Source: Enterobacteria phage phi80 | Sequence record: NC_021190.1 | Reading direction: 5' to 3' (one strand) | DNA length: 46,150 nucleotides | Shown here: positions 33,001 through 36,000 of the stretch, piece after piece | Position numbering within the stretch: position 1 is the stretch's first letter | Layout: the number at the start of each line of letters is the position of its first letter | Position numbers: made by a program

Positions 33001-36000
33001 TGTTGCCCGTTCTCACGCCGTTCTCGCTCTCGCGCGGGGATACTCTCTCACCGACCGGATCGCACCCGGTGATACAGCACGTTTACGTGTAGGGGTCTTA
33101 ACAGGTCATTGACGCTGTAAATCTGCATGTTGTTAAAAAGCAGGCGACTTGCTGTCCGCCGCTGGCTAACTTCGCTCAGCTGTCGATGTTTCGTTTCGAT
33201 GGAGTAATTAAACATCATGTGGATTTGTAGGTCAACACCTTGTGGATTTATTTTGTTGATTTAATCGTTTACTGTTGATTTTTATGTTGATTTATTTTTT
33301 GGTGGCATAAGTGATATGCTGAAAAAAACATCAAAAAGGAGTGGGTAATGGACTTGGATGAAGAAAGAGTGAACATGATGGTTCACGCCATGGGGCGGGC
33401 GGTCATGGAGTTGTCACTGGCAGATTTACCTATGACCCAGCAAAACATCATCGACAAGCTGGAACGGTACCGGAAGGAAACGGGAAACGTGATAGGTAAG
33501 GGTGTGAACAGGGATGCAGCTGAGATAGTCAGGAAGGGTAGTAAAGCTGTGAAGTAGGCACAAAAAACCCGGCGCGGTGGCCGGTTGTTAAAGCTCAATA
33601 TCAACTATGAAAAGTTTACTAATAGCCCCTTTTCTAACTGCTGCTTTGGCAGTTACTTTTACCGCTGACTCATGACTTAGACCCGTTGACAGAAAACGAC
33701 TAAGTGAAATGAGATACGGGTTGTCTGCCTTTGAAGCAGATGGATCGCTTATTTGTGCTGAGATGCGCTTATCTGAATCATCACCTTCTATAATGACTTT
33801 AGCGGTCATTCGGTGAGCGTCGAATTCAGTAAGGAAGATTCGATACTCCCTTAAGCCAAGAACTTCGTCGTCGTCCAACTGGTCTATTACTGCTTTATCT
33901 TGCTCATCAATTACAGCAGGCTTGAAACCATTCCCCGGTGTGACGCTTATCTTATTACAGGTGGTACCGATGGGGGAAACTGCCTGTCTAACTGATGGGC
34001 GTAACTCACTAGCCATCTTGTCAATCACTGAGATTAGACCTGAGATGGTATCTTTATCTTTATTTCCGAGGGCCTCAATTGCCTTCTCAAGTGCTTCTTT
34101 TAGGTATTTCATTTCCTCTTTCTTCTGCGAGTTTTTAGCGAAGATATAAGGCACTAATGCGCCAAGTATAGCCCCCGCAGACCCTGAGAACAATTGAGAC
34201 TGACTGATAAAATTCATGATAGTATCAAGAGAAAAACAATTGGCCCTAGCTTCGGTAGCGTAAATTTTAACCTCTTGAGTTGAGGTGCTTCGCGAGTACT
34301 TTTGGGTTAATGCGAAGGTTCCAGCTGTAGCTAATATCTTCGAAAATCCCTTTAGCGATTCACCGAGCGAAGAAAGTTCAATCTCATGCTTTTCAGCATC
34401 CAAACCGTCATATCTAAGTGAAAAATTAACATCGTGTAAGCCAGTGTTTTCCATCAACAGTCCTTATATGCTTTCACCAAAACGTCTCATCAGGCCACCA
34501 TAAGCACGATCGCAACAACCGAGAGCAAAGTAACCACGCCTACTATCAGATATTCTCTCATCACCCAAACGTCTCTTCAGGCCACTAAAATTATCGGCGA
34601 TATCGCAATACCGAGTACCAGAACACAAAACCGATTATCTCGACATCTGCCTCATCGGCCTCTTCGTCGTCATAATCACGATTAATGCTTCTGATTAGAA
34701 TTTTTCCGCCTGGTTTGCGATAAAGTTGCTTGATGCGCTTCAGATCTCCCTGGTTGATGGCGTAGAGTTCGCCGTCAATAACTCGCTTATTACCAGTATC
34801 AACAGCTACAGTTGCACCATCAGGAATGACTGGCTCCATACTGTCTCCTGATGCAGGAAAACACAGGACACCAGAACCATCACTATTGGCTCCAACTCGA
34901 CGGAGCGTTGCTTTTGAAAAGCGCAATTTAAAACCGTTGTGATCCTCATCGTGTACTCGTCCATCACCACACGCAAACTCGATATCCTTCAGAAACGGTA
35001 CTTCCACCTCATCGTCAGGTAGGGGGGTATTTTTGTCCCAAGCGTCGACAGTTCCCCACTCAGACTCTGGCGGGATGTTGCTCTCCAGATCCTTCTTTGG
35101 AGAACCCTCTCCATTTAATAACCAGTCAAGAGAATAACCGAATTTTTCAGATATTTGTTGCGCCGCCTCACGACTTAACGCGTCTCTTTTTATCCAGTTG
35201 TTGACGGTCTGTGGGCTAGTCGACAAAGCCTCAGCCAAATCCCGCTGCTTCAAGCCTTCCCTTGCCAGTAAAAATTTAATTCTTTCAGAAATGCTGCTCA
35301 TAAAACCCTCCGCTCCATGCATGGTAAACAACATGTGGATTTTTTCCATCACCATAATGTTGATTTAATCCACGCCATGAATTAACATGGTGTTGATTAC
35401 ACATGAGCGGAGCAAAACATGATCAACAAAAAATCCAACGCCAGCACCCCGCTTGAGAAAGCCATTAATGCAGTGGGCGGCTCTCAAAAGGTGCTTGCTG
35501 AAAAGGTCGGCGTAACGCCTCAGGCCATCAATATGCTTAAAAAGCGAGGTGGCAGCCTTCCAGTAACAAAAATGCGTAAATACGAAGAAGTAACCGGACT
35601 TCCTCGCGAAGTTCTATATCCAGGTATCTTTGCCGCCTAACCGGCGGCTCTAACCACGAAATGGAAAGCAATGCATTCACTTGCGTATCAACACAATACC
35701 GGAATACACCCGGGAGCGATGATAAACCGCGCTCAACCTAAGGCGGAGCCAGGTCACGACAAAATCCGCGATGCGGTCCGTGCATGGTCGTCGTCCCTGG
35801 ACAATCAGGACGTAGTGTCAGCGCTGATCATCAACGAATACCGGGAGCAGGGCGGTACCGCCATCAGCTTCCCAGAAGACATCAGCAGGGCGCGCCAGAA
35901 ACTTTTTCGCTTTCTGGATAACCGCTTCGACTCCGATCAGTACCGCGAGAACGTTAGAGAACTGACCCCGGCAATCATGGCTGTTCTTCCTGTTGAGTTT

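What the first reader, a model, noticed from the sequence alone, without database searches (positions are those of the whole stretch)
34474..34645. Duplication scar at the cI 3' end marks a module junction
Two 27-bp direct repeats (34474-34500, 34561-34587; 24/27 identical) are each followed by related sequence, so the DNA between cI and the rex-position gene is a decayed copy of the cI 3' end plus its flank. This is the footprint expected if the downstream gene was swapped in by recombination at the end of cI. The repeats contain CTGATGAG on the minus strand but no credible hammerhead helix II.
Basis: seen in the sequence. Interest (0 to 1): 0.5.

Follow-up and report, generated by a model that had tools for sequence, protein, structure and literature searches.

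The report
Orphan lambda-cI ends flank a micro-gene
The two repeats after the phage phi80 repressor gene are leftover copies of the last eight codons of a lambda-type repressor gene; they mark a recombination joint shared by many related phages and enclose a probable unannotated gene for a 23-24-residue membrane peptide, which is also carried by common E. coli cloning strains.

Summary
The window is phage phi80. The repeat is real: 34474-34503 and 34561-34590 match at 26/30, 87 bp apart, and 0 of 2000 shuffles score as well. The similarity does not extend past the ~25-30-nt box (p≈0.1-0.2). So this is not a decayed copy of the phi80 cI end.

On the minus strand each box reads (Q)WPEETFG-stop, which is the 3' terminus of lambda cI (24/25 nt). 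phi80 cI itself is unrelated to lambda cI.

In viral contigs the box occurs as the live end of lambda-type repressor genes and as an orphan after other repressor families. The same downstream modules follow both forms.

Between the two phi80 boxes lies a 24-codon ORF (34490-34564, minus), V/M-MREYLIVGVVTLLSVVAIVLMVA. The proximal box supplies its start region. The distal box supplies its last two codons and stop.

This 87-bp "ORF+box" unit occurs in 39 contexts, after at least 7 repressor families. Its four polymorphisms are all at third codon positions. One diverged paralogue shows protein-level constraint (P=0.0006).

A relative with the same downstream gene 40A has a single box.

The small gene is plausible, but its expression in phi80 is unproven.

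The parts
34591..35301 (-). phi80 cI repressor gene (236 aa, HTH + S24 peptidase). Stop codon TAA at 34591-34593.
   Evidence: Annotated as cI in X13065, 99.7% identical. Pfam Peptidase_S24 8e-20 and Phage_CI_repr 2e-10. No significant similarity to lambda cI.
34561..34585 (-). Proximal box GTGGCCTGAAGAGACGTTTGGGTGA, an orphan lambda-type cI terminus (WPEETFG-stop). It lies 5 nt after the phi80 cI stop and in the cI frame. Its last bases (GTG at 34562-34564; the A of ATG at 34561) are the start codons of the small ORF.
   Evidence: 24/25 identical to the lambda cI 3' end read from NC_001416. Preceded by stops TAA and TAG in frame. GTG start conserved in 39/39 contexts.
34490..34564 (-). Candidate small ORF of 24 codons from GTG (23 from ATG at 34559-34561): (V/M)MREYLIVGVVTLLSVVAIVLMVA-stop, with TGA at 34490-34492. 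Predicted single hydrophobic helix.
   Evidence: Translation. 39 distinct contexts, no indels. All 4 body polymorphisms are at third codon positions: 3 synonymous, 1 Met/Ile. The L140 paralogue gives BLOSUM P=0.0006 in this frame only. Weak SD in phi80 (-2.9 kcal/mol), strong in 19/39 contexts.
34474..34498 (-). Distal box GTGGCCTGATGAGACGTTTTGGTGA, the second orphan lambda-type terminus (WPDETFW-stop). Its first 9 nt (GTG GCC TGA) are the last two codons and stop of the small ORF. Homology to other phages breaks at its 3' edge.
   Evidence: An identical box directly follows an HK225-type cI and precedes a 40A homologue in L125; 730V1 has the same arrangement with a one-base-different box (GGG for TGG).
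34474..34560 (-). The 87-bp recurrent unit: 62-nt ORF body plus distal box. It is the segment present or absent between relatives.
   Evidence: Spacing of 87. The unit is near-invariant in 37 occurrences (about 30 distinct 220-nt contexts) and 39 contexts. The single-box relative 730V1 lacks the 87-bp unit.
33588..34454 (-). Gene 40A (the 'rex-position' gene), DUF7946 + DUF7947. Its own SD (TAAGGA, 34461-34466) lies just after the distal box.
   Evidence: X13065 annotation. Pfam DUF7946 4e-62 and DUF7947 1e-20. phrog_5147.

Best explanation
Shown: each repeat is an orphaned copy of the last eight codons plus stop (QWPEETFG*) of a lambda-type cI gene.

In lambdoid phages, the position just after the repressor gene is a slot where lysogen-expressed accessory modules are exchanged. 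Because lambda-type cI genes are conserved up to their stop codon and their downstream modules differ, the cI terminus is the natural crossover patch. When a heterologous repressor such as phi80 cI replaces the body of a lambda-type cI, the terminal ~25 bp stays behind with the downstream module.

Shown: phi80 has two such boxes because an 87-bp unit (62-nt body + box) sits between its cI-proximal box and gene 40A.

Inferred, fairly well supported: that unit is a micro-gene for a 23-24-residue single-helix membrane peptide. The upstream box has been co-opted as its leader and start codon. The first 9 nt of the downstream box provide its last two codons and stop.

Inferred: box-to-box homologous recombination shuffles repressor, micro-gene and downstream modules, and can delete the micro-gene to leave one box. 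Phage Rad52-type recombinases, which need about 30 bp, are the likely agents; phi80 encodes a RecT.

Inferred: the peptide would be made from the PRM transcript in lysogens. In phi80 its ribosome-binding site is weak, so expression there is uncertain.
For: - Identity of the box with the lambda cI end: (lambda ...CAGTGGCCTGAAGAGACGTTTGGCTGA; phi80 24/25).
- phi80 cI is unrelated to lambda cI.
- Box survey in viral contigs: 81 occurrences as the live end of ORFs of at least 150 codons, and 42 as orphans, with 10 left and 23 right flank types. At least 8 downstream modules are shared between live and orphan boxes. Every Gly/stop codon variant of the orphans also exists in live alleles.
- Homology breakpoints at box edges: KL53 from 34474; CB7286 has only 34474-34586; HK225 from 34565.
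- Presence/absence of the unit: 730V1 and L125 have one box plus 40A.
- Cassette contexts: 39, after lambda-type (live), phi80-type, HK225-type, WLKSS*, AYNKL*, TYRKHG* and C-type repressors.
- Coding signal: no indels in 52 occurrences. Polymorphisms GCG/GCT, GTG/GTT, ATG/ATA and TAT/TAC are all at codon position 3.
- The L140 paralogue differs at 22/72 nt (7/4/11 by codon position), with 5 synonymous codon changes. It has its own SD (GAGGG). BLOSUM score is 69 against 36.5±9.9 for random mutants (P=0.0006); the other two frames score below random.
- The GTG start is conserved 39/39. In 19/39 contexts the box variant GAGGTG gives an SD of -9.4 kcal/mol, 5 nt upstream. That variant is never a live cI end (0 of 21 contexts).
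- In several phages the cassette is followed directly by an intrinsic terminator.
- The same slot holds bona fide small membrane-protein genes, including the YoaK family at 63.6 bits.
- Recombination requirement and the phi80 RecT: PMC3945230.
Against: - There is no expression data.
- In phi80 the SD is weak (-2.9 kcal/mol), and cI terminates 27 nt upstream of the GTG start (30 nt upstream of the ATG), so translational coupling is unlikely.
- Only one diverged paralogue was found. The constraint test therefore rests on a single pair plus four polymorphic sites.
- The near-invariance of the 62-nt body could simply reflect recent spread.
- The peptide matches no Pfam, PHROG or NCBIfam family and is absent from a collection of about 15 billion predicted proteins. 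Callers rarely report ORFs this short, so this is weak evidence either way.
- The GAGGTG variant may be one lineage's mutation rather than repeated adaptation, and it also occurs without the ORF.
- How box-ORF-box first arose cannot be produced by a single homologous crossover; it needs one illegitimate join.
- The box survey was ascertained with an exact 20-nt pattern and a capped scan, so the counts are not frequencies.
Confidence: 0.7

Rival explanations
1. One reading: an in-situ tandem duplication of the phi80 cI 3' end plus flank, since decayed, created when gene 40A was swapped in by recombination at the end of cI.
For: The repeat is real and sits between cI and 40A. By eye there is a patch CTCGGT..TTGCGAT in both units (alignment).
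Against: Similarity beyond the box is not significant. The box is a lambda-type terminus, not the phi80 cI's. The identical inter-box segment follows unrelated repressors, including live lambda-type cI. 40A occurs with one box. Both boxes persist with at least 5 other downstream modules.
Confidence: 0.07
2. Pure scar: both boxes and the 62 nt between them are non-functional relics stacked by successive immunity or module swaps. The ORF is fortuitous, and its conservation reflects recent horizontal spread.
For: Orphan termini of at least three repressor families are stacked in many phages, up to C*-B-A-s-A-C, and in lambda itself (A*-B). The body is nearly invariant at the DNA level. phi80's SD is weak. 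No family match.
Against: The L140 paralogue has 22 substitutions, no indel, an SD of its own, and conservative replacements in one frame only (P=0.0006). 4 of 4 polymorphisms fall at codon position 3. The GTG start is conserved 39/39 and a strong SD is present in 19/39.
Confidence: 0.2
3. Functional RNA or DNA element: the box or the spacer is a ribozyme, a 3'UTR-derived sRNA, a terminator, or a site for a site-specific recombinase or DNA-binding protein.
For: CUGAUGAG is present in the distal box. A candidate sRNA 'at the 3' end of cI' was reported in another lambdoid prophage (PMC12803456). The box has sharp boundaries across many contexts.
Against: No Rfam match at E≤10. The spacer RNA folds worse than shuffles (z=+1.28; 180 of 200 shuffles fold at least as well). 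No promoter- or terminator-like site on either strand. The right boundary is simply the cI stop codon. Downstream boxes decay freely, with variants such as GAGCTG, TTTGAGTGA, GGGCGA and truncations.
Confidence: 0.04

Closest known systems
Mosaic module joints of lambdoid phages (modular-evolution view; homology-flanked mosaics studied by De Paepe et al. 2014, PMC3945230)
   Same: A short, highly conserved patch lies between unrelated segments, and the flanks recombine independently. The patch length (25-30 bp) is near the ~30 bp minimum quoted for Redβ, and phi80 has a Rad52-family RecT.
   Different: Here the patch is identifiable as the orphaned terminus of a specific gene, lambda-type cI. 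It is retained after at least 7 heterologous repressor families. Orphan termini of several repressor families are stacked, including in lambda's own cI-rexA spacer.
Lambda cI-rexA-rexB arrangement (lysogen-expressed accessory genes transcribed with the repressor)
   Same: Same position and orientation: genes immediately downstream of cI on the same strand, with no terminator in between.
   Different: phi80 carries DUF7946/7947 gene 40A instead of rexAB, plus a 24-codon ORF ahead of it. Co-transcription in phi80 is inferred, not shown here.
Small membrane proteins of enterobacteria and their prophages (e.g. YoaK family, 32 aa)
   Same: Similar size, a single hydrophobic helix, and location in the same cI-downstream slot in related phages.
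   Different: The phi80 peptide does not match YoaK or any other model. It ends directly in the hydrophobic stretch.
Type I toxins of the Ibs/Ldr kind (very short hydrophobic peptides; comparison from my own knowledge)
   Same: About 20 residues, a short polar N-terminus followed by an uninterrupted hydrophobic helix.
   Different: No antisense promoter or structured RNA was detected. The unit is only 87 bp and sits inside an operon. Toxicity is untested.

Membership tests
Orphan 3' terminus of a lambda-type cI gene | Nucleotide identity to the last 8 codons plus stop of lambda cI | tested here: met
   Proximal box 24/25 against NC_001416. Distal box has 2 mismatches to the proximal box.
Orphan 3' terminus of a lambda-type cI gene | Not part of a repressor reading frame (stop codons immediately upstream), and the resident repressor is not lambda-type | tested here: met
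   In frame the sequence reads ...RYRR* F * WPEETFG*. phi80 cI against lambda cI gives E=0.22.
Orphan 3' terminus of a lambda-type cI gene | The same box exists as the live end of full-length repressor genes elsewhere, with shared downstream modules | tested here: met
   81 live occurrences; at least 8 right-flank types shared with orphans.
   p≈0.08-0.2 in dinucleotide shuffles.
Protein-coding small ORF (small membrane protein) | Intact start and stop, with no frame-breaking indels across homologues | tested here: met
   GTG start 39/39. Fixed 40-nt spacing in 52 occurrences although the search pattern allowed 34-46. The L140 paralogue has the same length.
Protein-coding small ORF (small membrane protein) | Substitution pattern showing purifying selection in that frame | tested here: met
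   4 of 4 polymorphisms at codon position 3. Paralogue pair P=0.0006 in this frame, 0.91 and 0.94 in the other frames. This rests on few independent comparisons.
Protein-coding small ORF (small membrane protein) | Ribosome-binding site | tested here: inconclusive
   phi80 and 20/39 contexts are weak (about -2.9 kcal/mol). 19/39 contexts have GAGGUG at -9.4, 5 nt from the GTG. The L140 copy has GAGGG.
Protein-coding small ORF (small membrane protein) | Peptide detected and located in the membrane | not testable with these tools
   No ribosome profiling or proteomics available. The hydrophobic run L5-A23 is seen in the sequence.
Hammerhead ribozyme | CUGANGA core plus helix II, GAAA, helices I/III and a cleavage site (covariance-model match) | tested here: not met
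   Only CUGAUGAG is present, in the distal box. No Rfam match at E≤10.
Type I toxin-antitoxin | Antisense or overlapping sRNA gene with its own promoter | tested here: not met
   No sigma-70-like promoter on either strand in 34300-34800. No stable structure. The consensus scan is crude.
YoaK family small membrane protein | NCBIfam NF033821 match above its cut-off | tested here: not met
   The phi80 peptide has no match. The neighbouring 32-aa ORF in L132 scores 63.6 bits.

The most novel reading that the evidence does not exclude
The orphaned repressor terminus has been exapted. Its 3' half became the ribosome-binding site and start codon, and its 5' 9 nt became the C-terminal codons and stop, of a micro-gene. 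The resulting box-flanked 87-bp unit behaves as the smallest known shuffleable 'moron' cassette, moving behind any repressor that carries a box by short-homology recombination. If so, the relics of past immunity swaps are both the raw material for new small genes and the linkers that mobilise them.
Probability: 0.3. Interest if true: 0.65.

Novelty: new member of a known kind. Interest (0 to 1): 0.45.

Why it matters
This gives a concrete, sequence-level example of how lambdoid immunity and accessory modules are joined. A 25-bp gene terminus outlives its gene and serves as the shared crossover patch, and stacked orphan termini record earlier swaps, even in lambda's own cI-rexA spacer.

It also flags a probable unannotated 23-24-residue membrane peptide gene in the repressor operon of phi80. 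The same DNA is carried, 100% identical, by DH5alpha, DH10B, TOP10, JM83 and other cloning strains. If the peptide is expressed there, it is a lysogen-expressed small protein in very widely used cells. The slot it occupies usually encodes phage-exclusion functions.

Tried and rejected
- Hammerhead or other RNA family: Rfam at E≤10 found nothing in the spacer.
- Stable RNA structure: z=+1.28.
- Promoters or terminators in 34300-34800: none.
- Extension of the repeat into the cI 3' end: not significant.
- The 54-aa ORF at 34464-34628 that overlaps the cI end: rejected. In that frame the L140/phi80 comparison is worse than random (frame 2), and the ORF is absent from the protein collection.
- CRISPR-like mini-array: rejected. 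There are only two copies, the intervening 62 nt is conserved, and the box is a gene terminus.
- More diverged paralogues of the peptide: local tblastn on all fetched loci and a degenerate-pattern scan of viral contigs found only L140. A genome-collection scan gave two real hits, both Enterobacter, plus three chance hits.
- Family searches (Pfam, PHROGs, NCBIfam) and an exact look-up for the peptide: negative.
- Literature: no paper in the held library contains WPEETFG or the peptide sequence. The phi80 genome paper (Rotman 2012) and Ogawa 1988 are not held, so I cannot exclude that the lambda homology was noted there.
- svsR (PMC12803456) is described only as a 77-nt stretch at the 3' end of cI, without a sequence in the text. 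Its relation to this element is untested.
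Full report
**Identity of the window**

The region matches the deposited phi80 early region (X13065) at 99.7%. That record annotates cI (236 aa) and gene 40A. In window coordinates cI is 34591-35301 (minus strand). Gene 40A is the ORF ending at 33588 with its ATG at 34452-34454. The 133-bp spacer between them holds the finding.

Yes for the repeat.
- The repeat finder gives 34474-34503 and 34561-34590, 26/30 identical, 87 bp apart.
- The local alignment score is 40 against 15.3±2.3 in 2000 shuffles, and none reach it.
- The 25-nt core with up to 3 mismatches occurs only at these two places in the window, where 0 are expected.

No for the claim that related sequence follows each repeat. 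The 62 nt ahead of each box (cI 3' end against inter-box DNA) align no better than dinucleotide shuffles. Under four scoring schemes p is 0.08-0.19, and it is 0.2 for an anchored global alignment. CTGATGAG is in the distal copy only. Rfam finds no hammerhead or other family in the spacer, even at E≤10.

**What the box is**

Read on the minus strand, the proximal copy is G TGG CCT GAA GAG ACG TTT GGG TGA, which is W-P-E-E-T-F-G-stop. I fetched lambda (NC_001416). Its cI ends ...CAG TGG CCT GAA GAG ACG TTT GGC TGA (SQWPEETFG*), which is 24/25 identical. phi80 cI and lambda cI have no significant protein similarity (24% over 84 aa, E=0.22). The box is therefore a mosaic patch, not vertical inheritance. 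In phi80 it lies 5 nt after the cI stop, behind two in-frame stop codons (...RYRR* F * WPEETFG*).

**Survey of the box**

I ran a capped exact-pattern scan of viral contigs for the box.
- Of 125 occurrences, 81 are the live end of an ORF open for at least 150 codons (lambda-type repressors), and 42 are orphans.
- The orphans have 10 kinds of left flank and 23 kinds of right flank.
- The live boxes have 25 kinds of right flank, each starting immediately after the stop codon.
- At least 8 right-flank types are shared between live and orphan boxes.
- Every Gly-codon or stop-codon variant among the orphans also exists among live alleles.

So an orphan box and its downstream module were inherited together from a lambda-type immunity phage whose cI body was replaced.

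**Comparison with relatives of phi80**
- KL53 and G3/10 share homology from exactly 34474, the outer edge of the distal box, and have other downstream genes.
- CB7286 shares only 34474-34586, with a different repressor and a different downstream region.
- HK225 shares homology from 34565, has one box, and has a different downstream region.
- 730V1 and L125 have an HK225-type cI, a single box and a 40A homologue. L125's box is identical to the phi80 distal box; 730V1's differs at one base (GGG for TGG).
- Two phi80-type cI genes (LHM10-1, 1218KP) have no box at all.

**Stacked orphan termini**

Two other repressor termini behave like the lambda-type one (type A). Type B is ...FWSxHSW* and type C is ...ETK[ML]RLV*. 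Both are the ends of full-length HTH+S24 repressors in some contigs and orphans in others. Architectures include A*-B, B*-A, B*-A-B, C*-B-A-s-A and C*-B-A-s-A-C, where an asterisk marks the live gene end and 's' is the small ORF. Lambda itself is A*-B: the first 30 nt of its cI-rexA spacer is an orphan B-type terminus. The repressor-downstream region therefore keeps a layered record of earlier repressor gene ends.

**What lies between the two phi80 boxes**

A scan with a 20-nt inter-box word, which does not depend on the box, found 37 occurrences in about 30 distinct 220-nt contexts. The 62-nt segment is almost invariant and is always followed by a box. A wider tally gives 39 distinct contexts. 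The unit follows:
- live lambda-type cI, directly after its stop;
- phi80-type and HK225-type cI;
- repressors ending WLKSS*, AYNKL* and TYRKHG*;
- C-type repressors, with an orphan B terminus in between.

More than 15 different downstream sequences follow it. In several contigs an intrinsic terminator comes right after the distal box.

**Evidence that the inter-box segment is coding**

In the frame where the box reads GTG GCC TGA, the segment is an ORF. In phi80 it is GTG ATG AGA GAA ... GTG GCC TGA at 34490-34564 (minus), giving (V/M)MREYLIVGVVTLLSVVAIVLMVA*.
- There are no indels in 52 occurrences, although the search pattern allowed ±6 nt.
- The only polymorphisms in the body are GCG/GCT, GTG/GTT, ATG/ATA and TAT/TAC. 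All are at third codon positions; three are synonymous and one is Met/Ile.
- Contig L140 carries a diverged paralogue, MMRDYLIVGTVTVLTATVIFLIVA*. It has the same length and its own SD (GAGGG). It differs at 22/72 nt, split 7/4/11 by codon position, with 5 synonymous codon changes.
- For this pair the BLOSUM score is 69 against 36.5±9.9 for random mutants (P=0.0006). The other two frames score below random.
- The ATG is ATA in 17/39 contexts, but an in-frame GTG one codon upstream, inside the box, is conserved 39/39. It corresponds to L140's first ATG.
- In 19/39 contexts the upstream box reads GAGGTG instead of GAGACG. This gives an SD of -9.4 kcal/mol, 5 nt from the GTG. In phi80 the value is -2.9.
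- The GAGGTG variant was never the live end of a cI gene (0 of 21 distinct contexts).

**Other small ORFs in the same slot**

In related phages the same slot holds other small hydrophobic ORFs. One is a YoaK-family protein (63.6 bits against a cut-off of 32). There is also a 39-aa ORF and a 26-aa ORF.

**Evidence against, and limits**
- There is one diverged paralogue only.
- The peptide matches no family and is not in the protein collection.
- phi80's SD is weak, and cI stops 27 nt upstream of the GTG start (30 nt upstream of the ATG).
- There are no expression data.
- The spacer has no RNA structure signal (z=+1.28) and no promoter or terminator consensus.

**Mechanism**

Shown: the boxes are orphan lambda-type cI termini, and homology with other phages breaks at their edges. 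The 87-bp unit is present or absent between otherwise related arrangements.

Inferred: recombination within the 25-30-bp box shuffles the repressor, the unit and the downstream module. This is plausible for Rad52-type recombinases, for which about 30 bp is quoted as the minimum, and phi80 encodes one (PMC3945230). Recombination between the two boxes would delete the unit.

Inferred: the unit is a micro-gene that uses the upstream box as its leader and start and the downstream box as its end. It would be transcribed with cI in lysogens.

The first creation of box-ORF-box needs one non-homologous join, which I cannot reconstruct.

**Distribution**

The cassette body is in 64 of 5426 complete E. 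coli genomes. Of these, 59 are laboratory strains carrying phi80 DNA (DH5alpha, DH10B, TOP10, JM83, XL10-Gold, EPI300 and others), and it is unannotated in all of them. Only 5 records are wild isolates. It is also found in two Enterobacter species and in 51 viral contigs.

**Novelty**

Mosaic joints and accessory genes after the repressor are well known. Three things appear not to be recorded in the library I could search:
- the joint is specifically an orphan lambda-cI terminus;
- orphan repressor termini are stacked, including in lambda;
- a candidate micro-gene sits between the two boxes.

The two most relevant phi80 papers are not held. A 2026 paper reports a candidate sRNA at the 3' end of another lambdoid cI; its relation to this element is untested.

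**Verdict**

Noticed in passing
L009 1696-1725 (lambda NC_001416 37195-37224, minus strand): Lambda's own cI-rexA spacer begins with GGCAAGGTGTTCTGGTCGGCGCATAGCTGA (GKVFWSAHS*). This is an orphan copy of the 3' terminus of another repressor family, which is live in L035 and L066 (...IIGRVFWSSHSW*, 236-aa HTH+S24).
   Followed up: partly
L131, L132, L138, L155, L181 and others: Orphan repressor termini are stacked, up to C*-B-A-smallORF-A-C. A third terminus type, ETK[ML]RLV*, is live in some contigs and orphan in 8 or more other contexts.
   Followed up: partly
L132/L146, L135, L160 (just after the cassette): A 32-aa ORF, MRIGIAFPVIVFIVAVAFMAWFVVGGYATPGG, with its own SD is a YoaK-family small membrane protein (NF033821, 63.6 bits). 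In L132 it too ends at a box-like TGA-TGAGACGTTTGGGTGA.
   Followed up: partly
L140 and L160; L161: Further small hydrophobic ORFs occupy the cI-downstream slot. One is a 39-aa ORF, MDDLIYPILLTLLIVGLVGVFMRLDKFFFKRRSDRDVPE. Another is a 26-aa ORF, MRKYLAIIIAAALAALIVWQWVLDVG, which lies directly ahead of a 40A homologue.
   Followed up: no
L190, L194: The GAGGTG box variant followed by GG ATG ATG serves as the apparent leader and start of a different ORF (MMRGNRGDVAQENNK...). This suggests the orphan box is reused as a portable initiation region.
   Followed up: no
window 34474-34498 vs L001 (X13065): The 1988 phi80 sequence differs from the window inside the distal box (GATGAAACG against GATGAGACG). 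This is either a sequencing difference or a strain difference.
   Followed up: no
window 33588-34454: Gene 40A is a DUF7946 + DUF7947 protein (phrog_5147, function unknown) in the position that rexAB occupies in lambda. X13065 annotates a shorter 209-aa product and an internal 40B.
   Followed up: no
window 34380-34760 vs E. coli genomes: The cI-spacer-40A region is 100% identical in DH5alpha, DH10B, NEB 5-alpha/10-beta, TOP10, JM83, XL10-Gold, EPI300 and HST04. No feature is annotated over the spacer in any of them.
   Followed up: yes
phi80, HK225, 730V1, CB7286 junctions: The orphan box is in the same reading frame as the resident repressor gene in all four arrangements, for example FWYSVLL* R WPEETFG*. 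This could be chance, or it could mean that some tails were cut off by nonsense or indel mutations rather than by recombination.
   Followed up: no
literature (PMC12803456): A candidate sRNA, svsR (77 nt, 'at the 3' end of cI'), was reported in lambdoid prophage NC-SV of E. coli NC101. The text gives no sequence, so any overlap with the box or cassette could not be checked.
   Followed up: partly
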